Shown: positions 773 through 35,243 of the stretch, piece after piece
How the letters are laid out: every line of letters begins with the position of its first letter
Numbering within the stretch: the stretch's first letter is position 1
The notes under the pieces: generated by a model
The model's database searches: none
What the model was told of the DNA's origin: nothing
Seen by the model: only the letters and a program-made list of their open reading frames with translations
Position numbers and translations under genes: made by a program
Source of the DNA: a virus
Taxonomy: Duplodnaviria; Caudoviricetes
Strand: one strand, 5' to 3'
Virus record (IMG/VR): IMGVR_UViG_3300014168_000011
Span: 1-35,396 of that record
DNA: 35,396 nt

Positions 773-1723
773 ATGACTTGCCACAACTGCCACTCGAACT
801 GTGAGCGCTATGGGCGGGACCGTTACGGCCACCAGCGCTACCGCTGCCGCAAATGCTCAAAGACCTTCCAGGAGCCGCGCGAGAAGCCGCTAGAAGGCAT
901 GTACACGCCGATGGACAAGGCTGAGATGATTCTCAAGCTGCTCGTTGAGGGCGTGAGTATCCGATCCATTGAACGGCTGACTGAGATTCACCGTGACACG
1001 ATCCTTCGGCTGCTGGTTATCGCGGGCGAGAAGTGCGCCACGCTGATGGGCCGATTGCTCGTCAACATTCCCGTTAAGGATGTGGAGTGCGATGAAATCT
1101 GGGGCTTCGTCTACAAGAAGGAAGGCCACAAGTGGCCGGTAGAAAAGGACAACCCCAACATCGGCGATGCCTACTGTTTCGTCGCCATCGAGCGCAATAC
1201 GAAGATCGTCCTGAACTTTGCTCTCGGTCGCCGGAGCCAGGCCACGACGGATGTGTTTGTTGAAGACTTGCGGCTCGCCACGGCAAAAGATCGGTACCAG
1301 ATCACCACCGATGGTTTTGTGCCGTATCAGTCGGCCATCGACACGACGCTGTGTGATCGCGTGGACTTCGCGCAACTCATCAAGGTGTACCGCGCCGAGC
1401 GGGAAGGGGAAGCGCGTTACTCGCCACCAGAGGTAGTTGGAACGGAGAAGATTACGATCACCGGGAACCCCGATCCGAAGCGCATTTGCACGTCCATTGT
1501 GGAGCGTCAGAATCTCACGATGCGGATGCAAATTCGACGCCTCACCCGACTAACGAATGCCTTTTCAAAGAAGTGGGACAACCTCTGGGCCGCGCTCTGC
1601 TTGCACTTCGCGTGGTACAACTTCTGCCGAGTCCATCGCAGCTTGCGCGTTACGCCTGCAATGCAAGCGGGAATCGCCGATCATGTCTGGGAAGTGCGAG
1701 AATTGCTGTGGACATCGCGATAG
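773..1723 (+). mobile_element. IS1-family DDE transposase (single ORF)
   Basis: N-terminal CxxC..CxxC zinc ribbon, HTH (EGVSIRSIERLTEIHRDTI), CDEIWGF, TTDG, TSIVERQNLTMRMQIRRLTRLTNAFSKK; terminal inverted repeats not located. Confidence 0.9.
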
Positions 1724-8709: not shown

Positions 8710-8986
8710 TATGGCAATCAAAACCAAAACCGTGCAGGAAGCGTACACGTCGCTGTTGCTTGGTGACGCGCACCTTGCGTTCGTGCAGGACCAGATCACG
8801 GCCAGCGATCTCGCGATGAAGACCGTCACGTCTTTGGCGGGCGGGATCGTGCAGGGCGGGGCTATCCGGCAGAGCGCGTTGTTGTCCGCCATCGCGTCGG
8901 CGATGAGCATCGGCGTCAAGATCGGCTTGGAGATGAGCGGGGTGGTGACGCCCATCGTGGGGCCGGGAGGGGCGGTGCTGCAATGA
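8710..8986 (+). CDS. hypothetical protein
   Basis: GAGG RBS; ORF track 8705..8986, start approximate. Confidence 0.5.
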
Positions 8987-9657
8987 GGGCGGTCGCCTAC
9001 ATCCGAGTTAGTTCGGATAAGCAGGCAAAGAATGGTCTGTCGCTCGAAGCTCAAGACGCGAAGCTACGAGCCATGACGACCGTTCGCGAGGATGAACTAG
9101 TGGACATCGTCGTGGACGAAGAATCTGCGAAGCCGGGGTCTCTCAAGCGTGAGGGCGTCCAGCGAGTATTAGCGATGGTCCGCAAGAACGCAGTCGATGC
9201 CGTGATCGTCTGCAAGCTCGACCGATTGACTCGGAGTATCCGCGATCTCGCAGAGTTGCTGGACACGTTCGAGAAGCACAACGTCTCGTTGGTGTCTCTG
9301 GCCGAATCGCTAGACACCCACAGTGCCAGCGGAAGATTAGTCATCAACATCATGACCGCCGTTAGCCAGTGGGAAAGAGAAGCCATTGGCGAGCGGACCA
9401 AGGCTGTGATGGACTTCAAGAAGGAGCGCGGCGAGCGGCTGGGGAACACGCCCTATGGCTGGACCGGGCCGAAGAAGGGGGCGCTCAGTATCCATCCAGG
9501 GGAGCAGCTTATCATCGGCACTATGAAAGATTTAGTGCGCCTTGGGTGCGACTATACTGACATCGCTAGAAGGTTGAATATAATGGGCCATCGGACCCGG
9601 TGTGGCGGCGAGTGGCGGCGTGAGTACGTGGCAAGGATTCTGAAAGCGTCGGCATGA
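8983..9657 (+). CDS. serine recombinase (resolvase catalytic domain plus short recombinase DNA-binding domain)
   Basis: AYIRVSSDKQ catalytic Ser, KLDRLTRS, GRLVINIMTAVSQWEREAIGERTK, PYGW. Confidence 0.93.
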   Translation: MRAVAYIRVSSDKQAKNGLSLEAQDAKLRAMTTVREDELVDIVVDEESAKPGSLKREGVQRVLAMVRKNAVDAVIVCKLDRLTRSIRDLAELLDTFEKHNVSLVSLAESLDTHSASGRLVINIMTAVSQWEREAIGERTKAVMDFKKERGERLGNTPYGWTGPKKGALSIHPGEQLIIGTMKDLVRLGCDYTDIARRLNIMGHRTRCGGEWRREYVARILKASA

Positions 9658-10922: not shown

Positions 10923-11179
10923 TCGAGACTCCGTTGGCTAGCGCAATCAGGGGCGGAGACTATCATGCTGTCAGTCAGATAATCTTCCTAGACAATGGCC
11001 GTTTATGGATGGCGCTGCTGCGCGAATTCCAAGATGGGATATTCCATGAGTTCCACGAGGGGCAATCTGATCTTTCGTGGACAACTGCAAACGCCGTACA
11101 AAATGTTGTATCCGATCTGCAACGTGTGCTAGATTCAGTGCGTAGTGAGCCCAGAGGATCTCTTCCAAGCGCACGTTGA
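10919..11179 (+). CDS. hypothetical protein
   Basis: ATGA overlap. Confidence 0.4.
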   Translation: MIETPLASAIRGGDYHAVSQIIFLDNGRLWMALLREFQDGIFHEFHEGQSDLSWTTANAVQNVVSDLQRVLDSVRSEPRGSLPSAR

Positions 11180-11939
11180 CCGCGCTGAGAAAATAGCGAC
11201 GGCTTTGTGCTGGCGTTATCGGGTTTCTGGCGCACTCTTCTATCAAGACGAGGCAAGATCCGAGGCCCGCCTCGCACTCTGGCGAGCCTGCCGCAACTTC
11301 GATCCCACACGTCAGGAACTTGAGATCCGTAAGATACGCCAGCATGAGTTAGCCCACTTCTGGAACCCCCTCTTTGGCACTCCTCCCCCTCCCGACTGCG
11401 ATCATCAAGACCCCTACGGCAACTTTTGGATATGGGCCGTGCGCCAGATCTATGGCCGGGTGATCGACTGGTTCCGCTCGTACCACCTTATTAAGAGGAT
11501 GGCGAAGGGCGAAGGCCCATCCATGGTGTACCACGAGAGATTCCTCTCAATGACACGGGCGAAGGGTGCTGGGGTGATGGACGGAGACGGCCAAGGGCCG
11601 CATGACTTTGACGAGTGCCTTCCGTCCAGCGACCGTACCGATGGTTACGATGAGATAGAGGAGCAGAGGGCGATCTTGCACGGACTGGTCACAGCGGCGC
11701 GTCTCACGCAAACGGAGATTCAGAGCTTGAGACTGGCGTATGGGGATGACGAAATGGGGAAGGCCGAAATTGCGGAGTTGATGGGCGTAGCTCCATCCAC
11801 CGTGGCGACCCTGCTAAAGTCGGCGATGGGGAAACTGAAGGCCGTAGCGCAGGCTCAGGCCCAGTGCGCTCCAACCAATTCCCTCAACTGCTTGACGACG
11901 TTGTCGATGGCCCGCCCAATGCTCCGACCGGGCATATGA
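11145..11939 (+). CDS. sigma70-family RNA polymerase sigma factor (group 3/FliA-like architecture)
   Basis: Region 2-like DEARSEARLALWRACRNFDP..FWIWAVRQIYGRVIDWFR; region 4 HTH LTQTE..KAEIAELMGVAPSTVATLLKSAMGKLK. Confidence 0.8.
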   Translation: MSPEDLFQAHVDRAEKIATALCWRYRVSGALFYQDEARSEARLALWRACRNFDPTRQELEIRKIRQHELAHFWNPLFGTPPPPDCDHQDPYGNFWIWAVRQIYGRVIDWFRSYHLIKRMAKGEGPSMVYHERFLSMTRAKGAGVMDGDGQGPHDFDECLPSSDRTDGYDEIEEQRAILHGLVTAARLTQTEIQSLRLAYGDDEMGKAEIAELMGVAPSTVATLLKSAMGKLKAVAQAQAQCAPTNSLNCLTTLSMARPMLRPGI

Positions 11940-16210: not shown

Positions 16211-18502
16211 ATGGCCGTATCCCGCTGGCACCAAGACGCTGAAGTCCGACAGCTTATCGAGCACCTCGATCAGCCGGACAAGTTTGAACAGCCGGGCCGT
16301 CTAACCCCTGCCGAGATCCGAGTCATCCTGAAAGAGCTTGACCGATGCCGCAAGGACTTCGTCTATGCCGCCCGCAACTACTTCTGGATCACCGATAAGA
16401 ACCTCCAGGACCAACTGTTCTCCCTGTGGCCGTCGCAGGAGTTGATCCTTGAGAAAGTCTTGGAATTGAGAAGTAAAGGAAAGCAACAGAAACTAATTAT
16501 AATCAAGAGCAGACAATTGGGGTGCAGCACGCTCATCGAAGCGCTGGTAGCGTGGCGCACGATGTTCTTCAGCAACGTCAACGCGCTCGTGGTCTCCTAT
16601 GACCGGAGCCACACCGCCGATGTGCTGTTCCCCATCATGACGTTCATTTACGACCGGATGCCGTGGTGGCTCAAACCGATGTGCGCGATGCGCAAGTCGG
16701 AGGAGGGCCTGCACTTCGACAACCCGAAGCCCGATCTCCGAGCAACAGAGCCGGGCCTGAACAGCCGAGTGTACGTCAAGGGAGCCAATAGCACCACGGC
16801 AGTCGGACAGGGCATCCGGCTTTCGGCGGTTCACGTGAGCGAATTTTCTGACTTCGAGGAACGCACCGCACGGGGGATTATTGATGAGGATATGGTCAAT
16901 GCTCTGGCCGAAGGGCCGGGCACGTTCGCTATTCTGGAGAGCACAGCAAAGGGCGCTAACACCTACAGCCATAGGCTATGGAAGCGCTGCGTGGAACTCG
17001 CCGAACGGGATCGGGCGGAGTGGGAGCCGCTGTTTCTACCGTGGTTTTTTGACCCGACCCATGTGCGCCCGGTAAGGGTGGACTTCCGGCTGGACAAGCG
17101 CGATCACGAGATCCGCGAGAAGACGATGTCGGACTGGGTGCGCTGCGACAATTCCGAGTGCCTCCAGTACCACACCCGCTACAAGTTGAAAGTGGATCGC
17201 GACGGCAGCATTTGCCCGACGTGCGAAACCGGCACGCTGCACTTCTACACCATCACGGATGCTCAACTGGCATGGATGCAGGACAAGCGGATCAACTATA
17301 GCCGTGACGAAGAGAGTGCCAAGAAACTGCTCCAAGAACAGGCCGGGACCGCCGAGGAGGCGTTCCAGGTAAGCGGCTATCAGATGTTCGGCCAAAAGGC
17401 TCAACAGTTTGCGAACATCAACGTGCGCCCGCCGTTGGCCGAAGGCGACTTTGATATGGCAGGGCGGTTCCATGGCGCGAACACGGCCAAAGGCCGCAAC
17501 GCTGAGGGGAAGTACCCATGCTTCCAGGAGGACTGCCATGTTGACCACGAGTGGGACGATGCGCCGCTGAAGATCTGGGAGATGCCAAAGCCGGAAGCCG
17601 AGTATTGCTGCGGGGCCGACGTGGCCGAAGGACTGGGTGGCAAGTGCGACTACAGCGTGGGTGTCGTCACGCGCATCAGCACAACGGGTAAGGGCGACTT
17701 CCAAGTAGCAACGTGGCGCTCTAACACTATCGACCCCATCGGGTTTGCGTACAAGCTGAACCACTTGGGACTGTATTACAACAGCGCACTCATGAGCGTG
17801 GAGTGCAACCGCTACGACATCTGCCTGGGCACGATGCGCTTCCAACTTGGCTATCCCAACTGCTATCGGTGGAAGCACCTCGATTCGATGAACATCATGA
17901 GCCAAAAGCTCGGATGGTACACGAACCTGTCCTCCCGCCCCCGGCTGTGGCAAACCTTCAAGCGGTGGCTCCAGCAGGAGTTGTACTTTGTCCGCTCCCA
18001 TAACCTTGCGGAGGAGATGAAGAACTTCGTCAAGGACGATGAGGACTCGTACCAAGCTGGGGCCGACAAGGACGAGCACGACGACGAGTGCATAGCCACG
18101 ATGATTTCTCTCTACTGCGCACATGAATCCGACTGGAACGACGCGCTCGGTATGATTAGCGTGAAGCAGGAACTCTCTAAGGATACGGCTCAGTACCATC
18201 TGCGCTGCACGAACTGCGGCAATCTGTGGTGGCAAAACGTCATCGAAGAGACGACGCTAGACCCTTCCGAATATAAGCCAACCCTCGACCTGAATAAACG
18301 GGTGGCTGAGAGCGGCGGGCTGCGTTGCCCCGGCTGCGGCAACCGGCGAATCGAGATCACGCGGAACCAGGGCGGCGCTGGATCGCTGGCCGAAACGGCG
18401 GACCCCGATGAGTTATACCGCGAAGCGGCGCAGGATTTCTGGTCCCCCGAGAAGGCATGGGATGCGGCGCAATTGAACTACGACTACGATTTGCCAACTT
18501 AG
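16211..18502 (+). CDS. terL: terminase large subunit with Cys-rich insertions
   Basis: Walker A KSRQLGCST, Walker B VHVSE, ESTAKG coupling motif, nuclease GADVAEG..DYS and HDD. Confidence 0.92.
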   Translation: MAVSRWHQDAEVRQLIEHLDQPDKFEQPGRLTPAEIRVILKELDRCRKDFVYAARNYFWITDKNLQDQLFSLWPSQELILEKVLELRSKGKQQKLIIIKSRQLGCSTLIEALVAWRTMFFSNVNALVVSYDRSHTADVLFPIMTFIYDRMPWWLKPMCAMRKSEEGLHFDNPKPDLRATEPGLNSRVYVKGANSTTAVGQGIRLSAVHVSEFSDFEERTARGIIDEDMVNALAEGPGTFAILESTAKGANTYSHRLWKRCVELAERDRAEWEPLFLPWFFDPTHVRPVRVDFRLDKRDHEIREKTMSDWVRCDNSECLQYHTRYKLKVDRDGSICPTCETGTLHFYTITDAQLAWMQDKRINYSRDEESAKKLLQEQAGTAEEAFQVSGYQMFGQKAQQFANINVRPPLAEGDFDMAGRFHGANTAKGRNAEGKYPCFQEDCHVDHEWDDAPLKIWEMPKPEAEYCCGADVAEGLGGKCDYSVGVVTRISTTGKGDFQVATWRSNTIDPIGFAYKLNHLGLYYNSALMSVECNRYDICLGTMRFQLGYPNCYRWKHLDSMNIMSQKLGWYTNLSSRPRLWQTFKRWLQQELYFVRSHNLAEEMKNFVKDDEDSYQAGADKDEHDDECIATMISLYCAHESDWNDALGMISVKQELSKDTAQYHLRCTNCGNLWWQNVIEETTLDPSEYKPTLDLNKRVAESGGLRCPGCGNRRIEITRNQGGAGSLAETADPDELYREAAQDFWSPEKAWDAAQLNYDYDLPT

Positions 18503-18625
18503 GATTGGCCCGATGGATGCACTGAAGTAATAGGAACGCCAGCCGCCAGGGTCTTCCCTGACTGTAATGATGGCGTAGTGCAAATCATGCACGATGGCAG
18601 GAGGCGAAGTGCAAATTTAGGTGTG

Positions 18626-18700
18626 TGGTTCGGCGTGCTTTGGTATGCCTAGGCTCGGTGGGGCAAGGCAGGGCACGGTTAGGCAAGCTAGGGTATGGTG
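18626..18700 (+). repeat. degenerate pentamer array (NGGYN) x15
   Basis: tggtt cggcg tgctt tggta tgcct aggct cggtg gggca aggca gggca cggtt aggca agcta gggta tggtg. Confidence 0.8.
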
Positions 18701-18728
18701 AAAGGGCCGGGACCGTCCCGGCCTTTTC
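18701..18728 (+). terminator. intrinsic terminator, possibly bidirectional
   Basis: AAAGGGCCGGGA..TCCCGGCCTTTT hairpin. Confidence 0.7.
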
Positions 18729-19336: not shown

Positions 19337-19849
19337 GTGCCTATCTACGAAGTGGTCTGTCATTCCGAATCCTGCCCGGCGAAGGGCCGTGTTCGAGAAA
19401 CGCTCTTCAAGTCCTACACCGACATCATGCCGCCGTGCCCCGAGTGCGGCCACGCCACCGTGCGCGTCCCCTCGGTGGCCCACGCGATCTGGCTGGGCAC
19501 GCTGGATCGCTACAACGCGCCGGGATGCCAGACGCTCAATGGCGTGGAGGACGGCGGGCATATCGCCTACCGTACCCGCAGCAGTCGGATGGTGGACGGA
19601 AGCCCCGAGCCGGTGGTGATTCGGACCCGACAGGACCAGCGGGCGTACTGCAAGGCGGAGGGCCTGATGATGCCGGACGAGATGCCGCAGCACTGCGACT
19701 GGGCGGACAAGAGCGCCAGTTCACAGGGGTTGCCGGGGTCATGGGCGAGCGTGAACCCAGACTTCATTAAGTCAGAGGCGGCGAAGCCGCTGCCGCCTGA
19801 GACGGCGGCTCCTGCGTCGGTAACCGAGCCTTCTATAGAAGTACGATGA
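19337..19849 (+). CDS. FmdB-like zinc ribbon protein
   Basis: PIYEVVC..C..CPECG; position between terL and portal. Confidence 0.75.
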   Translation: MPIYEVVCHSESCPAKGRVRETLFKSYTDIMPPCPECGHATVRVPSVAHAIWLGTLDRYNAPGCQTLNGVEDGGHIAYRTRSSRMVDGSPEPVVIRTRQDQRAYCKAEGLMMPDEMPQHCDWADKSASSQGLPGSWASVNPDFIKSEAAKPLPPETAAPASVTEPSIEVR

Positions 19850-20514
19850 AGCCCTTAGCTATTGACCTATTTTGTGGACTTGGCGGCTGGACCGAAGGGC
19901 TGCTCGCAGAGGGGTACGATGTCGTCGGCTTTGATATTGAACGGCACGTCTATGGGGATCAGAAGTATCCAGCACAACTCGTTTTGCAGGATGTGCTCAC
20001 GCTTCATGGCTCCCAATTCCGTCATGCGGCGCTGATCGTGGCAAGCCCTCCCTGCGAAGGGTATTCATATCGGGCTATGCCGTTCAAGCGAGCACGATCA
20101 CTGCCTCCGCCGTCAAATGAATTATTTGATGCTTGTTTTAGGCTTCAGCGCGAAGCGTGCGAATCGGCAGGGCGCTACGTACCTATGGTCGTTGAGAACG
20201 TGCGCGGGGCAGAAAAATGGGTCGGGAGTGCCCGTTGGCATGTCGGCCCCTATTATTTGTGGGGGGATTGCCCTGCTCTATTCCCAGCGATGCGAGCGCG
20301 AAAAGGGACAGGGGGTGGATGGTTTGGAAAGTATGTGGAACGGGGAGATCCTTGCTCATATTTCAGTAGCAAGTCGCCTCATCGAAAGGTGATAGTAGCT
20401 GAGAGATCGAAAGTCCCTTTCGACATATCCCGCTACATCGCATCGGTTTACAAACCTGAAGCGACCGTCGCGGCATTGGTAACCGAACGATCCGTAGAAG
20501 TGCGATCCGAGTAG
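19846..20514 (+). CDS. DNA cytosine-5 methyltransferase (short form)
   Basis: Motif I DLFCGLGG, motif IV SPPC, motif VI ENV. Confidence 0.85.
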   Translation: MKPLAIDLFCGLGGWTEGLLAEGYDVVGFDIERHVYGDQKYPAQLVLQDVLTLHGSQFRHAALIVASPPCEGYSYRAMPFKRARSLPPPSNELFDACFRLQREACESAGRYVPMVVENVRGAEKWVGSARWHVGPYYLWGDCPALFPAMRARKGTGGGWFGKYVERGDPCSYFSSKSPHRKVIVAERSKVPFDISRYIASVYKPEATVAALVTERSVEVRSE

Positions 20515-20786: not shown

Positions 20787-22682
20787 ATGGACTTTTTACA
20801 GCGCGGTCCCATTTGGGACACCAACTCTGACGGTGAAACTCCCCGCTACGCGGGAGGCAAAACCTCCGACGACCGCCGCAAGTACATCTCCTCCGTCCTG
20901 AAGTGGCGCGAGTCGGCCCGCGAGGAAGCCTTCCGCACGGCGGATCTGAACCCCGAGAAGGACGATGCCCTCAAGTACATGAACGCACTCGGCGGCAAGT
21001 GGTGGAACGACAAACGTGCCCGCTACAAGTCCAAGGCGTTCGACAACCGCCTGAACAACAGCCGCCAAGTAGATCTCTCTCTCCTCACGCAGATCCGGCC
21101 CACCATCGACATCTCCAGCCGCGTTGACGCCTACCAGGAGCAAGCCCAGATTGTGGGCAAGGTCATCCGCTCCGAGTGGCTGACCCGCGACATGGACATG
21201 GAGTTCATCCGGCTGAACGACATCGCCAAGCTGAATGGGACGGCCTTCTGGAAGATGGGCGCGGCTTACCCCGGCATGACGCAGACGCTCTCACTCGGGC
21301 CGGAGGCCGTGCTCCCGATCCAGCCCGGCTTCCACATCCAGCAGTCCACGGCAGTCCTGTACCGGACCTGGAAGTCGATCAACCAGATCCGCAAGCGGTT
21401 CCCGTTCACCAGCCAGGGCATAGAGAACGACGCCTCTTTTCTCGATCAGGGCTTCGGCAACCAGACTCGCTACGCTCGTCCGAACGACATCCCCGAGTAC
21501 ACATGGAATGGGTTAAGCCAGGGGATGCGGCGGCTGTACGGCGTGAAAACGTCGGCATCCGACATGGAAGGCCCGTCGATCTTCAGGTCGCTCGAACTTC
21601 AGGAATACTATGTCGATGACCCGTCGATCAACGAGTCGAACCAGCGCATCTTGATGCGCGATCCCTTCATGGGCCTGAAGTCGTACAACTGGTGGTACTG
21701 GGTGAATCCGGGCCAGCCGTTGTACCCGCGTAAGCGGCTGCTGGTGTTCTGCGGGCACCGGCTCTTGTACGATGGGCCATCGCCGTTCTGGCATGGCATG
21801 TATCCCTTTGCCTGCCTCCGCCTGAACCCAATCCCATTGAACTTCTGGGGCCTGAGCAAGTACCGCGATCTCCTGCCGCTCAATCAGGCGATGAACGAGA
21901 TTCTGGCGGGCATCCTGGACATGGTGAGACGCGCTCTGAACCCGACCGTCATCACCAAGGCGGGAGCCGTACCGCAGGCAACGTGGCGGGAGTTCTACCC
22001 CGATATGCCCGGTGGCAAGCTCTACATGCTGCCGAACAGCAACCCGAACTCGGACGTGAAGTACATTGACCCGCCTAACATCCCGTCCTGGGTTATGCAG
22101 GCGCACGGCTACCTCTCGTCGGAGTTTGATCGGCTGGCGGGCATCCTCGATCCATCTTCGGTCGGCAAGAAGAAGCAGGTGCCAGGCGGCGACACCATCG
22201 AGCAAATGCGCGAGATGATGAACACCGTCACGCAACTGGAGTCACGCTACGGCGAGTTGTTCCTGCGCGATGCTGGCGTGCTGGCGATGTCTAACATCTT
22301 CCAGTTCTTTGAGACGCCGATGCGCCTCAAGCTGTTGGGCAAAGACGGCATCAGTATGGAGGACTTCAACTACAACGGGCCTAACCTGATTCCCGATAAC
22401 GTGCCGCAGGAGGACCACTGGAAGTCCTTCGCGATGCTGATCTCGCCGGGCACCCTGCTTGGCTCGTCGCGAGACCGTGAGAAACAGACCGCCATCGGCA
22501 TGGCCGCTAAGGGGCTGTTGCCGTTACAGAAACTCTGGCAGGTGCTCGAAGCGGGCGATCCGAAGCAGTTGATGGAGATGATGAAACAGGAGCACGAGAT
22601 GGGCGTCAGCGTGAAAGGCGGCGGCAAAACCGCAGGCAGCGCCACCCGGCTGACGCGAGACCAGAGAACAGGCGGCGTCTAG
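20787..22682 (+). CDS. portal protein (P22/podovirus-like)
   Basis: 631 aa between terL and scaffold/capsid; GTAFWK, LLYDGPSPFWHGMYPF, FWGLS..LLPLNQAMN pattern. Confidence 0.85.
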   Translation: MDFLQRGPIWDTNSDGETPRYAGGKTSDDRRKYISSVLKWRESAREEAFRTADLNPEKDDALKYMNALGGKWWNDKRARYKSKAFDNRLNNSRQVDLSLLTQIRPTIDISSRVDAYQEQAQIVGKVIRSEWLTRDMDMEFIRLNDIAKLNGTAFWKMGAAYPGMTQTLSLGPEAVLPIQPGFHIQQSTAVLYRTWKSINQIRKRFPFTSQGIENDASFLDQGFGNQTRYARPNDIPEYTWNGLSQGMRRLYGVKTSASDMEGPSIFRSLELQEYYVDDPSINESNQRILMRDPFMGLKSYNWWYWVNPGQPLYPRKRLLVFCGHRLLYDGPSPFWHGMYPFACLRLNPIPLNFWGLSKYRDLLPLNQAMNEILAGILDMVRRALNPTVITKAGAVPQATWREFYPDMPGGKLYMLPNSNPNSDVKYIDPPNIPSWVMQAHGYLSSEFDRLAGILDPSSVGKKKQVPGGDTIEQMREMMNTVTQLESRYGELFLRDAGVLAMSNIFQFFETPMRLKLLGKDGISMEDFNYNGPNLIPDNVPQEDHWKSFAMLISPGTLLGSSRDREKQTAIGMAAKGLLPLQKLWQVLEAGDPKQLMEMMKQEHEMGVSVKGGGKTAGSATRLTRDQRTGGV

Positions 22683-22824: not shown

Positions 22825-22872
22825 ATGGGACGCAAGAAAGGTCGCGGCAAGGGCCGTCACGCCAAACGTTAA
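22825..22872 (+). CDS. 15-aa basic peptide MGRKKGRGKGRHAKR
   Basis: GGAAAGGAG RBS; similar peptide at 28260. Confidence 0.55.
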   Translation: MGRKKGRGKGRHAKR

Positions 22873-24648: not shown

Positions 24649-24925
24649 ATGGCTCTTTCATACACTGATTTGACCGCCTTTACCGAGCAATACGTGGTTG
24701 AGCGCACGACTGATGTGATCTTCAAGCAGTCGCCGCTTTTCACGAGACTGCTCAATCGGCGTCGGATGAAGTTCCAGGGCGGAACTTTCATCCAAAGACC
24801 AATAATTTACAGTGAACTCAACGGCGATTGGTTCTCGAAGGGCGATATCTTCAACATCGCATACGTCACCACCGACACTGCGTTCACCGTCAACATGAAA
24901 ATGTCGTACGTCAATGTCACGCTGT
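24649..24925 (+). CDS. major capsid protein, exon 1
   Basis: RBS; MALSYTDLTAFT..TDVIFKQSPLFTRL..GGTFIQRPIIY; capsid-like sequence ends at VNVTL. Confidence 0.8.
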
Positions 24926-25689
24926 TAAAGAGACTGTTTGGCTGGCTGATCCCGAGTATGGACTTGGGCTTCTGCGTGAGCTAAACTAGAAGCAGCCTAT
25001 GACTCCAAGCTACGAGTACATCGCCGGGTTCATTGATGCTGACGGGCATGTGGGGATCGTGAAGTCGCGCCCCGCTAAATCTGCTCCGCAGTATTACGTG
25101 AGGCTGACCCTGTATTCGCAGAATCTTGCAGTGCTGAATGCAATCAGTGAAGTGATCGGTGGATACATCCAAGCATTTAACAACCAGAAAAGTAAGGTTG
25201 GTTTTGGATGCTATCGGTTGATGGTCAAGCCGTCAGAGGCCGTCCCTGCCCTTGAGAAGATCGTGCCGTTCATGATTATCAAAAAAGAGCAGGCGGGATT
25301 GGCTCTTCGGCTCCACGCCACAATCAGCCGTCACTCTTACCACGGGCGATCCAAGACGGATGGAATGCTGCGGACGCCAGGGCACATCACTGAGCAGCGC
25401 GAAGCAATGTATGTTGAGATGAAGCGTCTCAACCATCAAGATTCTCTGGAGTATAGTAAAATCTGGGTGAATTCAGAGGAAGCCCCGGAGGGGGTTACTT
25501 TGAGCCAAGCCGTAGAGGGCAAAGGTTCTACGGAAGGTGCAACGACTAGCTCGGTGAGTCCCAACAATAATCTGAGCCAAGAGCGCCCGGCCAGCGTAGC
25601 TGCTGGAAGACATAGTCTGGACAGCACGGTACTCGTTCAATAGGCAACGTGCTGATGTGCGGATAAAGAGCCGCACGATAACAAGTTCG
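24926..25689 (+). mobile_element. group I intron (IA-like) carrying a LAGLIDADG homing endonuclease
   Basis: P3 CTGGGTG(25463)/CGCCCGG(25584); P7 GACTA(25544)/TAGTC(25613); R-like GAAGGTGCAACGACTA; S-like AAGACATAGTC; 5' exon ends in U, intron ends in G; removal restores frame. Confidence 0.88.
24999..25643 (+). CDS. single-motif LAGLIDADG homing endonuclease
   Basis: YIAGFIDADG; L.KIVPFMIIKKEQA I-CreI-like C-terminal motif. Confidence 0.9.
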   Translation: MTPSYEYIAGFIDADGHVGIVKSRPAKSAPQYYVRLTLYSQNLAVLNAISEVIGGYIQAFNNQKSKVGFGCYRLMVKPSEAVPALEKIVPFMIIKKEQAGLALRLHATISRHSYHGRSKTDGMLRTPGHITEQREAMYVEMKRLNHQDSLEYSKIWVNSEEAPEGVTLSQAVEGKGSTEGATTSSVSPNNNLSQERPASVAAGRHSLDSTVLVQ

Positions 25690-26492
25690 ATGGCATTGAC
25701 GACATCCTGAATCGCGGCCCGCAGGCAGCGTTCAGTATTGTCGAGAGCAAGTTCGCCAACGCATCCATGAAGATGGCGAAGCTCATCGCTACGGCCCTCT
25801 ACCAGGACGGCCAGAGCGCGGTGAGTGCGCCATTCACTGGAGCATTGTCCGGCACCAAGTCGATGGACGGCTTGCTCGCCTGGATCGACGATGGCAACTC
25901 CAGCGGCTCGTACACGAGCGTTGGTGACCAGACCCAGAGCTTCCTGGCGGTCGGTGGCATCACCCGCACGAACCTCTTCCAGGTGGCTCCGACGTTCTCC
26001 AGCGCCATCACGCCGATCAGCGCAGTCCAGGGAGCCAACTCCTACGTGAACCGCGCCTTCAACACCTACTCGGTGAACGACGTGAACACGGCTTACGGCG
26101 CAGCGTGGTTCGGCAACGACTACGTTGACCTGATGGCGGGCACCCAGACTGCCTACAACAAGATCTGGAATACCCTCCAGCCGCAACAGCGGTACTACGA
26201 CAACCAGAGCGATGTCGGCAAGGTCGGCTTCCAGTCCTTCCGGTTCAACGCTTCGGAAGTCGTCATCGACAAGTACATCCCGTCCGATGGGACCAACGGC
26301 ATGATCCTGGGGTTGAACACCAACTATCTGGAACTCTACATCTCCACGAACAAGAAGTTCCAGTTTGGCTTCACGGGCTTCAAAGAGGCTCAGAACTCCA
26401 TCGACATCGCGGGCCAGTTCCTCTTCGCGGGTAATCTGATTTGCCCGAACCCACGCACGTCCTTCAAAATTTGCGGCACGGCGTTGCTTTGA
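25690..26492 (+). CDS. major capsid protein, exon 2
   Basis: Spliced junction CTG T|AT GGC gives ..NVTLYGIDDILNRGP..; joined CDS 1080 nt, 359 aa; GFQSFRFNASEVVIDKY. Confidence 0.82.
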
Positions 26493-34300: not shown

Positions 34301-34608
34301 CCACGGTCACAACGACATCACTGCCGAATGGCGTCATCGGTGTGCCGTACTACCAAGTGCTTAGCGCAACAGGATCGTTACCAATCACTTGGTCAATTAT
34401 CGCGGGATCGCTGCCGAGTTGGGCTGCGTTAACCCCATCTTCCGGCGAAATCGCAGGCACCCCCGATGCTATAGGCACGACCTCATTTGTCGTAGAGGCT
34501 AGCAATACAGGCGGGGCAAGTAATCAAGCTCTGTCAATTACAATCACTGTGCGGCCTCCGACTATAAGCGGTAATGTTGTAGTATCAGGGAGAGTTGTAT
34601 TGCAATGA
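31366..34608 (+). CDS. secreted-type heparinase II/III / alginate-lyase-like protein with two C-terminal putative Ig domains
   Basis: Signal peptide MKRLMVFLVLGASLAVA; PRIWLT, VALIYDW, NYY..H, G..PES..YG, RSDW..GGH; two ITT..L.NG..PY.Q.L.A.GS.PITWSI..GSLP..G.I.GTP repeats. Confidence 0.7.
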   Translation: MNVMMKRLMVFLVLGASLAVARAPRIWLTPTLLAKLQAKYAANTPDWQAFKAIADGYKGRTVAPYSNAACSGSTQICYNGGYQASYQGSSYLQGGFYLSLAYQVTGDTGYSDTAIQILEAMNDSWDGRSDCSTYAAGTIPISTNDSWSDREYQVAVALIYDWNNARLSTTDQTNAATMTYCMYQWAAAHANDWPGKGTYPGANYYGGHLLGFGLSAIAMTGDNSLMTTLYSTVLGWWSGTQTNSVATQFASGVYQNGYNPESYTNYGSPHIERLLLYALAIQTYTGTSIMADYPNRLFHNELYNVMPGRQRITGESDWIGPGVGVVPGNNFNLYAYLLNGTADGAYAQFLWNNLPVGLDGRNPQTYADGVPVANWDDLFFFGDTSRTATDYSTVLPPWFAGVPYSDGHTYVRSDWTDSAVWASYIGGIAMGGGHEITMAGTVQINRGGDYLLPQIADWWGTNGVTGTPGIYDSPGAGVYRGNSLYFYDYPYPYNSYGTLSTATAAGATSFTLKATAYVTCGNVIGLGRGTGNAEYVTLTASPCGSGTATLTTATPLVNSHASGEYLDTNWNANYISVGATYFGGQTGNPGRGSFAPWAGVPDVMAAKQTSNFSYTLSQLTGAYDQVPGKLNTTNRTLRSYFRTFVWMGGGYFVVKDRAISHAARAGVSTYDKLLFWHLSPGTTPAWTAPTVSGSRVTTATIGSSKLVIDTLLPASPSLTIRETDAGTTIGSPAIAQINAGRADANIFETTPVVPLTYRLEVRDPAPSDTFSALTVLSALGSTVTPPAVSAVTSISSTHEGAYIADATPRLAILPIDDTQQYSTVSFTQAMTGTASVLVAGLSPVNTYNVQQNGTTILTAQVVGADGTLYFAPSGGGSFAITVNGQAPPTAPVITTAGLANGTLSVPYSQTLTASGSTPITWSIVSGSLPSWASLAPASGIISGTPNAVAVTSFTVQATNSAGTASKPLSLTVVSNIVPPTVTTTSLPNGVIGVPYYQVLSATGSLPITWSIIAGSLPSWAALTPSSGEIAGTPDAIGTTSFVVEASNTGGASNQALSITITVRPPTISGNVVVSGRVVLQ

Positions 34609-35243
34609 CTCTGACGGTTAAGGAACTTGGGCTCGCCTTCCCTCGCGTCACCGCAGAGCGGCTTGCGCTCTACGGGCAAGCCATGCTGGACGCTATGGAT
34701 GCGGCGGAGATCAATACTCCGCTGCGGCAGCGCCACTTCCTGGCTCAAGTCGGGCACGAAAGCGGCGATCTATCGGCGCTCGAAGAGAACCTGAATTACT
34801 CTGCCGAAGCACTCTATAGAGTCTGGCCCACTCGGTTCGGGGGCGGTCTGGCGGCGCACTATGCGCACGACCCTGAACGGATCGCCAATCGCGCCTATGG
34901 CGGGCGCATGGGCAATGGTGCCGAGACATCTGGCGACGGCTGGCGCTTCCGGGGCCGCGGATTGATCCAACTGACCGGGCGCGAGAACTACGAAGAGTTC
35001 GCGGTCGCAATGAGCTACAACGTCGTTGCAACCCCAGACATCATTCTGAGCGCGGAGGCTCCTGGCCCGCGCCTCTGCTGCGCTACCGCAACGTGGTTTT
35101 GGACGGTCCGCAATCTTAACGCGCTCGCGGATCACGACGACGTGGAGACCATCACTCGGCGCGTGAATGGTGGGCTGACGGGGCTGCCGGACCGGGTTGC
35201 ACGGGTGGATCTGATTAAAGAGGCTCTGGAGGCTGCGGCGTGA
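34605..35243 (+). CDS. glycoside hydrolase family 19 endolysin
   Basis: HFLAQVGHESG, EENLNYS, FRGRGLIQLTGRENY, ITRRVNGG. Confidence 0.92.
   Translation: MTLTVKELGLAFPRVTAERLALYGQAMLDAMDAAEINTPLRQRHFLAQVGHESGDLSALEENLNYSAEALYRVWPTRFGGGLAAHYAHDPERIANRAYGGRMGNGAETSGDGWRFRGRGLIQLTGRENYEEFAVAMSYNVVATPDIILSAEAPGPRLCCATATWFWTVRNLNALADHDDVETITRRVNGGLTGLPDRVARVDLIKEALEAAA

What the first reader, a model, noticed from the sequence alone, without database searches (positions are those of the whole stretch)
24649..26492. Major capsid gene split by a homing-endonuclease group I intron
Seen: complete ribozyme core (P3-P9 with P7.1), U at 24925, terminal G at 25689; excising 764 nt yields a 359-aa ORF reading NVTLYGIDDILNRG. 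Established: phage group I introns are best known in nucleotide-metabolism, polymerase, terminase and lysin genes, usually with GIY-YIG or HNH nucleases. A LAGLIDADG intron in the most abundant virion gene is unusual, makes capsid output splicing-dependent, and would be misannotated as three genes.
Basis: partly seen in the sequence, partly recalled or inferred. Interest (0 to 1): 0.85.

Follow-up and report, generated by a model that had tools for sequence, protein, structure and literature searches.

The report
Spliced intron splits phage capsid gene
A 764-base group I intron carrying a predicted DNA-cutting homing enzyme gene interrupts this uncultured phage's major capsid gene, and environmental RNA shows the two halves joined exactly, most likely by self-splicing; this is a known kind of mobile element, with the twist that the enzyme gene starts beside the splice-site helix and reads through the whole catalytic RNA.

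Summary
Confirmed. Bases 24926-25689 are a group I intron: U.G pair at the 5' site, terminal G, covarying P3-P7.1 core. Removing them gives a 359-aa HK97-fold capsid protein, 97% identical to an uninterrupted homolog. The exact junction appears in contigs of 6 of 7 metatranscriptomes laid; long bridges come from two runs of one study, and no DNA run could be laid as control. The intron encodes a single-motif LAGLIDADG protein, and the same site is occupied patchily in related capsid genes, as homing predicts. What remains of interest is the layout, shared with a 49%-identical capsid gene. Exon-1 read-through stops 6-14 nt before the nuclease start, that start has no Shine-Dalgarno and abuts the guide sequence, and the ORF crosses 181 nt of core. 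This suggests, untested, that each transcript either splices to make capsid or is translated to make nuclease.

The parts
24649..24925 (+). Major capsid gene, exon 1 (92 codons plus 1 base); strong Shine-Dalgarno upstream
   Evidence: 90 of 92 residues identical to uninterrupted P0001; anti-SD duplex -6.9 kcal/mol
24926..25689 (+). Group I intron, 764 nt
   Evidence: joint 24925 to 25690 in RNA contigs
24921..24996 (+). P1: exon 24921-24925 pairs with the guide sequence 24992-24996 (U24925.G24992), enclosing a long hairpin; in-frame stop at 24982-24984
   Evidence: MFE and centroid agree, z -2.84; pair probability about 0.7; same fold with changed sequence in L177 and L227
24999..25643 (+). 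Single-motif LAGLIDADG homing-endonuclease ORF, 214 aa; about the last 60 codons are written in the ribozyme core
   Evidence: PF00961 E 1.9e-5, 25.9 bits over cut-off 23.1; best PDB matches are I-CreI, I-MsoI and I-CvuI type; tail pLDDT under 50 in a weak model
25413..25433 (+). 9-bp hairpin at the P2 position, inside the nuclease coding sequence
   Evidence: same stem in L177
25463..25621 (+). Catalytic core: P3 25463-69/25584-90, P4 25473-78/25498-503, P5, P6, P6a, P7 25542-48/25613-18 (G25544-C25617, bulged C25543), P7.1 25549-77, P8 25591-606, 5' strand of P9.0
   Evidence: covariation over 23 relatives
25622..25689 (+). P9 (nuclease stop in its loop), P9.1, 3' strand of P9.0 (25686-88) and terminal G25689
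25690..26492 (+). Major capsid gene, exon 2
   Evidence: phrog_9953 major head protein E 1.1e-14; 257 of 266 residues identical to P0001; HK97-type fold for the family model

Best explanation
This is a group I intron in the phage's major capsid gene that most likely splices itself out of the capsid mRNA and likely spreads between related phages by homing, using the LAGLIDADG nuclease it encodes. Shown: the boundaries, the conserved core, restoration of a full-length capsid frame, the exact exon junction in RNA-derived contigs, and patchy occupancy of the same site in relatives. Inferred from group I chemistry: guanosine bound in P7 attacks after U24925 in P1, then the freed exon attacks after G25689, which P9.0 positions. 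Inferred from the family: the single-motif nuclease acts as a homodimer and cuts intron-free capsid alleles near codon 93 during co-infection, and repair copies the intron in. Inferred from layout (about 40% likely): the nuclease is made mainly from unspliced precursor. Ribosomes running over the 5' splice site would melt P1, stop 14 nt before the nuclease AUG, re-initiate there and unfold the core, whereas transcripts on which P1 forms first would splice and make capsid.
For: Homolog contiguity 117 of 120 and top rank of these boundaries among 3948 open excisions. Core covariation in 23 sequences: 97.2% of 760 cells paired, 24 of 34 pairs with changes on both sides, 0 of 500 shuffles as high, slid controls 33-42% paired. 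Joint 24925 to 25690 with no ambiguity of position in X1, X2, X3, X5 and X4, X6, X1. X5 record 27 (658 nt) has no other letters; X6 record 19 (609 nt) has none and one inserted base upstream of the gene. X1 and X3 also hold contigs across the unspliced junctions, and X5 holds an intron piece. X1 cover is high over 22.8-28.4 kb and near zero over 15.8-21.8 kb and 32.4-34.4 kb, a weak hint that the signal is RNA. The near-identical DNA records found all carry the intron (L146, L155). Mobility: the same-site intron is in L177 (84% nt identity) and L227 (capsid 49% identical), and is implied by P0149 and P0159. Each of 4 intron-bearing exon-1 alleles is as close or closer to an uninterrupted allele than to another intron-bearing one, and well-supported branches force at least 3 gains or losses. 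Window and L177 share 33 identical bases around the site while their exons differ at 21-22% of positions, and the joined site is the most symmetric 27-bp stretch of the gene, 10 of 13 pairs, 1 of 2104 centres. Layout shared by window, L177 and L227: guide sequence, two bases, AUG; an in-frame stop 6-14 nt before the AUG; a 213-214-aa ORF ending in the P9 loop, with the other two core frames closed. The window's nuclease start has no Shine-Dalgarno (-1.1 kcal/mol).
Against: No DNA run could be laid, so an intron-free allele with identical exons in the same samples is not excluded. X7 shows no joint. The Rfam score is under the gathering cut-off, and L227's intron had no Rfam match at E 0.01. 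I found no convincing P10: the 4-bp candidates are not kept in L177. The symmetry width of 13 pairs was chosen after I saw the repeat; at 11 pairs 6 of 2112 centres tie, and L227's site shows no such symmetry. The exon-1 tree is short and mostly unresolved, and some 'uninterrupted' proteins may come from RNA assemblies. For the coupling step: the AUG itself is paired in window and L177 but mostly free in L227, and it is a folding prediction only. Nuclease activity and self-splicing were not tested.
Confidence: 0.9

Rival explanations
1. The intron is real, but the joined RNA contigs come from a co-occurring intron-free phage allele, and splicing of this copy is not shown.
For: Uninterrupted capsid genes at 93-98% protein identity exist, some on 64-103 kb contigs. 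Contigs cannot tell RNA from DNA, and the joined form could not be looked up in other runs.
Against: The joined contigs match the window's exons letter for letter over 600+ nt. None of the 15 listed of 16 cluster members equals the spliced protein; the best has 353 of 359 identical. The only viral record with the window's exact exon-1 end is the intron-bearing one. The intron-bearing phage needs splicing to make any capsid.
Confidence: 0.1
2. The nuclease ORF's run through the core and its position next to P1 are neutral by-products of stop-codon loss ('core creep') and insertion history. Nuclease is made at a low level, perhaps from the excised intron, with no splice-or-translate partition.
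For: Core creep is a published, non-adaptive model (PMC3073962). The tail is dictated by RNA sequence and has low model confidence. In the common 5-bp P7.1 form, ORFs from the P5 region also creep into the core and stop at P7 (L051, L098). The open-frame class may be one lineage that inherited the state once.
Against: The frame stays open although the L227 core is only 129 of 181 nt identical. Among the 10 cores with a 6-bp P7.1, 8 have 60 or more open codons upstream in that frame: window, its duplicate L062, L177, L069 and L093 (both PF00961), L036 (HNH-like), L106 (cut by the flank) and L090 (no nuclease match). Local folding of the excised intron does not free the AUG in window or L227.
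Confidence: 0.5
3. Splicing needs the intron's own protein as a maturase, or a host chaperone, rather than the RNA alone.
For: [quoted passage not shown] No clear P10 was found.
Against: The core is complete and canonical. Many relatives with the same core have little or no room for an ORF between exon and P3 (psbA cases).
Confidence: 0.15
4. The insertion is a dead remnant or an assembly artefact, and the capsid gene is broken.
For: Rfam score below the cut-off.
Against: Two further DNA records carry the same intron. The core is intact, the nuclease ORF is intact in four homologs, and the junction is seen in RNA runs.
Confidence: 0.01

Closest known systems
Mycobacteriophage LittleE major capsid intron (Pope et al. 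2013, PMC3706429; abstract, passages and section 19 read)
   Same: About 800-nt intron in the major capsid gene, U before the 5' site and G at the 3' end, a putative LAGLIDADG ORF inside, uninterrupted close homologs.
   Different: LittleE's ORF is on the opposite strand; here it is on the sense strand and overlaps the core. LittleE splicing was shown by RT-PCR and N-terminal sequencing; here only by environmental RNA contigs. This intron's core had no blastn match in 50,697 GenBank phage records.
Group I introns in MCP genes of crAss-like phages, Delta and Zeta groups (Yutin et al. 2021, PMC7886860; passages read)
   Same: Group I introns with endonuclease domains split the major capsid gene of uncultured phages and confuse annotation.
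   Different: The capsid here is closest to Mx8, Mx9 and BUCT555 among GenBank phages; it has one intron, not several; the passages read give no splicing evidence.
T4 td intron with I-TevI, and the tabulated ORF/core overlaps (PMC2988022, PMC3073962; passages and one section read)
   Same: The nuclease ORF's 3' end is part of the ribozyme, and nuclease translation is restrained by RNA structure because it interferes with splicing.
   Different: td overlaps 20 nt and the review's five-row table tops out at 81 nt; here 181 nt (P3 to P9 loop). T4 uses a dedicated hairpin over a Shine-Dalgarno plus a late promoter; here P1 itself covers the initiation region and there is no Shine-Dalgarno. The review says most group I introns have a stop just after the 5' site; here it lies 57 nt in. 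From my own knowledge, yeast mitochondrial maturase ORFs also read through cores, so long overlap is not new in itself.
psbA introns of cyanophages (S-PM2 type; named in PMC3706429, details recalled)
   Same: 14 of 60 cores with the same P7/P7.1 motif lie at psbA genes.
   Different: Those are small, with 5-bp P7.1 and no nuclease between P1 and P3. I did not compare S-PM2's own intron.

Membership tests
Group I intron | U at the end of the 5' exon paired with G of an internal guide sequence (P1) | tested here: met
   U24925.G24992 in a 5-bp P1; same pairing in L177 and L227
Group I intron | Terminal G preceded by P9.0 | tested here: met
   G25689; 25619-21 pairs with 25686-88
Group I intron | P3/P7 pseudoknot with the G-binding G-C pair and bulge; P4-P6 domain | tested here: met
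   P7 100% paired, P3 96%, P4 90%, P6 100%, with compensatory changes
Group I intron | Precise removal from the RNA | tested here: met
   Joint in 6 of 7 RNA runs; contigs only, no DNA control
Group I intron | P10 pairing with the 3' exon | tested here: inconclusive
   Only 4-bp candidates, not conserved in L177
Group I intron | Protein-free, guanosine-initiated two-step splicing | not testable with these tools
   Needs an in vitro assay
Rfam RF00028 | Score at or above the gathering threshold (50 bits) | tested here: not met
   40.5 bits, E 1.6e-8; relatives with the same motif score 67-94 bits (L036, L056, L072)
Subgroup IA (label recalled) | P7.1 inserted between P7 and P3; match to subgroup models | tested here: inconclusive
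   P7.1 is present and covaries; no subgroup models are available here, so IA1, IA2 or IA3 is not assigned
Single-motif LAGLIDADG homing endonuclease | One LAGLIDADG motif with its acidic residues and the I-CreI-type domain | tested here: met
   PF00961 above cut-off, one stretch; aligns to I-CreI and I-MsoI over residues 6-106; D13 and D15 invariant in 4 homologs
Single-motif LAGLIDADG homing endonuclease | Pseudo-palindromic target at the insertion site | tested here: inconclusive
   10 of 13 symmetric pairs centred on 24923, width chosen afterwards; absent at L227's site
Single-motif LAGLIDADG homing endonuclease | Homodimer that cleaves the intron-free allele | not testable with these tools
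   Needs a cleavage assay; no complex job was sent
HK97-fold major capsid protein | HK97-type fold, homology to annotated major head proteins, place after portal and scaffold | tested here: met
   Model of P0001 (pLDDT 76) matches SU10, PhiTE and HK97 capsids, best E 1e-7; phrog_9953; Mx8 and Mx9 major head 24-27%; portal at 20787-22682
HK97-fold major capsid protein | Main protein of the virion | not testable with these tools
   Uncultured phage

The most novel reading that the evidence does not exclude
A lineage of capsid introns has turned the P1 splice-site helix into a splice-or-translate switch. The guide sequence doubles as the nuclease's initiation region, exon-1 ribosomes are delivered to it by read-through, and selection keeps one frame open through the whole ribozyme (a sixth P7.1 pair removes the stops), so each late transcript yields either capsid or nuclease but not both.
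Probability: 0.3. Interest if true: 0.62.

Novelty: new member of a known kind. Interest (0 to 1): 0.38.

Why it matters
It is a clean case of a capsid intron in an uncultured phage with matching RNA evidence from the environment, and it shows how such genes are lost to annotation: Rfam's default cut-off misses the intron and three false proteins are in public collections. If the coupling model holds, it gives a compact test of how an intron in a very highly translated gene balances splicing against making its nuclease. As a kind of element it is already known.

Tried and rejected
Rfam at gathering threshold over the window: 0 matches. A motif scan for a second group I core in the window found none; the 763-aa terminase has no intein or nuclease Pfam hit. 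Alternative splice sites: the next-best excision (24926/25690) scores lower and ends in A, not G. P10: not found. Internal promoter for the nuclease: the one sigma-70-like site lies inside the ORF and equals the shuffle expectation, 1 against 1.1. The idea that excision frees the nuclease start is not supported by local folding in 2 of 3 introns. Nuclease fold model too weak to search, pLDDT 51. Capsid profile against PDB sequences: 0 hits; only the fold search placed it. Nuclease searches in viral contigs returned only the duplicate record. The intron core had no match in GenBank phages. Lack of RNA cover outside the late genes is only a weak hint. In one search, the long frames ending at +10 in L035, L058, L084 and L103 were dropped: in L035 the nuclease lies in another frame and the others resemble it. 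L090's open frame was also set aside. Host not assigned: the three genome-bin contigs with relatives are only 38-48% identical and are labelled Alphaproteobacteria, Terriglobia and Acidobacteria. Literature searches for a P1-embedded nuclease start and for a survey of group I introns in IMG/VR returned no direct description; the library lacks most subscription papers, so this is not proof of absence.

Full report
Setting. The window is a 35.4-kb linear virus record, about 36% complete by CheckV. A 99-kb metagenome contig of the same phage is 99.93% identical over 5.8 kb and also carries the insertion (L155). The gene lies in the head module, after terminase (16211-18502), portal (20787-22682) and a 309-aa probable scaffold gene (the scaffold label is my inference from position).

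The observation. Because 3948 excisions in the scanned box are also open, I ranked them against a homolog: this one is first. Of 271 homologs found with exon 2, the 120 listed were aligned; 117 run without a gap across the junction, and the best, P0001, is 359 aa and 97% identical. The family model has the HK97 capsid fold, and GenBank relatives are annotated major head proteins of Mx8, Mx9, BUCT555 and two Tunturiibacter phages at 23-27%.

The ribozyme. P1, P3-P9, P7.1, P9.0 and P9.1 all pair in the window. Rfam finds the core at E 1.6e-8 but below its cut-off. A P7/P7.1 motif from the window matched 121 returned viral stretches, about 140 estimated. I aligned the window with 22 hand- and script-picked diverse cores out of 88 distinct ones. 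The named structure gives 97.2% paired cells and 24 of 34 pairs with changes on both sides; shuffles and slid controls fall far below. The structure was read from one of these sequences, which favours it over the slid controls. No P10 was found.

RNA evidence. Eleven RNA runs hold part of the stretch and I laid seven. The joint 24925 to 25690, skipping 764 with no positional ambiguity, is in X1, X2, X3, X4, X5 and X6 (five study codes, some perhaps one campaign) and not in X7. X5 and X6, one study, bridge it with 245-255 letters on the short side and exon letters identical to the window; the others have 19-30. Unspliced junction contigs occur in X1, X3, X4 and X7. These are assembled contigs and no DNA run was available, so an identical intron-free allele is unlikely but open.

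The nuclease and mobility. ORF 24999-25643 has one LAGLIDADG motif and resembles the homodimeric I-CreI, I-MsoI and I-CvuI enzymes. Five database proteins match it, two of them apparently partial copies of the window's own protein, the others at 91, 77 and 48%. Site 93 was empty wherever both sides were covered in the 23 viral loci. It was occupied in L155 and L177 among 35 metagenome loci and in L227 among 83 loci, which overlap the first set. Intron-bearing exon-1 alleles are scattered among uninterrupted ones. The same capsid family has other insertions near codons 47, 87 and 92 (L001, L169, L215, L106, L237). A 33-nt identical tract shared with L177 and a symmetric joined site fit homing, though L227's site is not symmetric.

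How common. For the 60 distinct cores with long flanks, PHROGs on the nearest open frames gave major-head families at 19 loci and psbA at 14. I did not map splice sites in each, so these are 'in or beside'. Pope 2013 (abstract, passages, section 19), Yutin 2021 (passages) and Pope's citation of Tuc2009 establish capsid introns; the Jug-phage preprint PMC12363816 (passages) already used metatranscriptomes to support 37 of 76 predicted phage introns. I read no supplements; intron tables there could hold members of this subfamily. The scan's own notes list 47 similar findings in at least 46 genomes, and some note ORFs running through the core. None was a look-alike of this DNA.

The layout. In window, L177 and L227 the guide sequence is followed by two bases and the nuclease AUG. 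Exon-1 read-through runs 12-20 codons over a P1 hairpin of differing sequence and stops 6-14 nt before that AUG. The ORF is 213-214 aa and ends in the P9 loop. L227 is distant: capsid 175 of 359, nuclease 96 of 214, core 129 of 181 identical. By contrast the codon-47 introns have a stop within two codons of the 5' site and the nuclease further inside the intron. Of 89 distinct cores, 79 have the shorter P7.1 and none of them is open upstream in this frame; 10 have the 6-bp form and 8 of those are open for 60 or more codons. These include the window's duplicate and one frame with no nuclease match. The overlap of 181 nt exceeds the five examples tabulated in PMC3073962 (0-81 nt; passages and section 8 read). 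PMC2988022 (passages) describes re-initiation within seven codons of a stop and shows that nuclease translation harms td splicing. From this I infer a splice-or-translate partition. It is untested, AUG pairing is not kept in L227, and neutral core creep in a single lineage explains much of the pattern.

Verdict. A real and very probably active group I intron with a LAGLIDADG nuclease gene in a major capsid gene. It is a new member of a known kind, made somewhat more useful by RNA support and a testable regulatory layout. Interest 0.38.

Noticed in passing
L001:3161-3864 (also L169, L215): A different group I intron (704 nt) at capsid codon 47 with its own LAGLIDADG-motif ORF further inside the intron and a stop right after the 5' site; Rfam E 1.8e-6.
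   Followed up: partly
L237:900-2010: Insertion 2-3 nt upstream of the window's site in a distant capsid gene, with a long ORF holding two LAGLIDADG-like motifs; no Rfam match at E 0.01.
   Followed up: no
L069, minus strand, both sides of the intron core: The intron appears to begin with a stand-in copy of the capsid's last 25 residues (19 identical to the 3' exon), so spliced and unspliced RNA would both give full-length capsid.
   Followed up: partly
L090, minus strand: One frame is open for 499 codons from inside the intron, through the core and into capsid exon 2; its intron part has no nuclease match.
   Followed up: no
window 22825-22872 and about 28260: Tiny Arg/Lys-rich ORFs (12-16 aa), the first with a strong Shine-Dalgarno, with similar peptides near the head genes of several relatives; possibly DNA-condensing core peptides, missed by gene callers.
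   Followed up: partly
window 25647-25684, run X1: A contig of another intron with similar P9 and P9.1 but different flanks is present in the same metatranscriptome.
   Followed up: no
window 24642: Runs X6 and X7 have one extra A just upstream of the capsid start, within the Shine-Dalgarno region: a strain variant.
   Followed up: no
window 16211-18502: The 763-aa terminase large subunit has Cys-rich, zinc-finger-like stretches and no Pfam hit.
   Followed up: no
window 773-1723, 8983-9657, 11145-11939, 19846-20514, 34605-35243: IS1-type transposase, resolvase, sigma-70-like factor, C5 DNA methylase between terminase and portal, and a GH19 endolysin.
   Followed up: no
window 18600-18720: Short imperfect G-rich repeats between the terminase and the next gene.
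   Followed up: no
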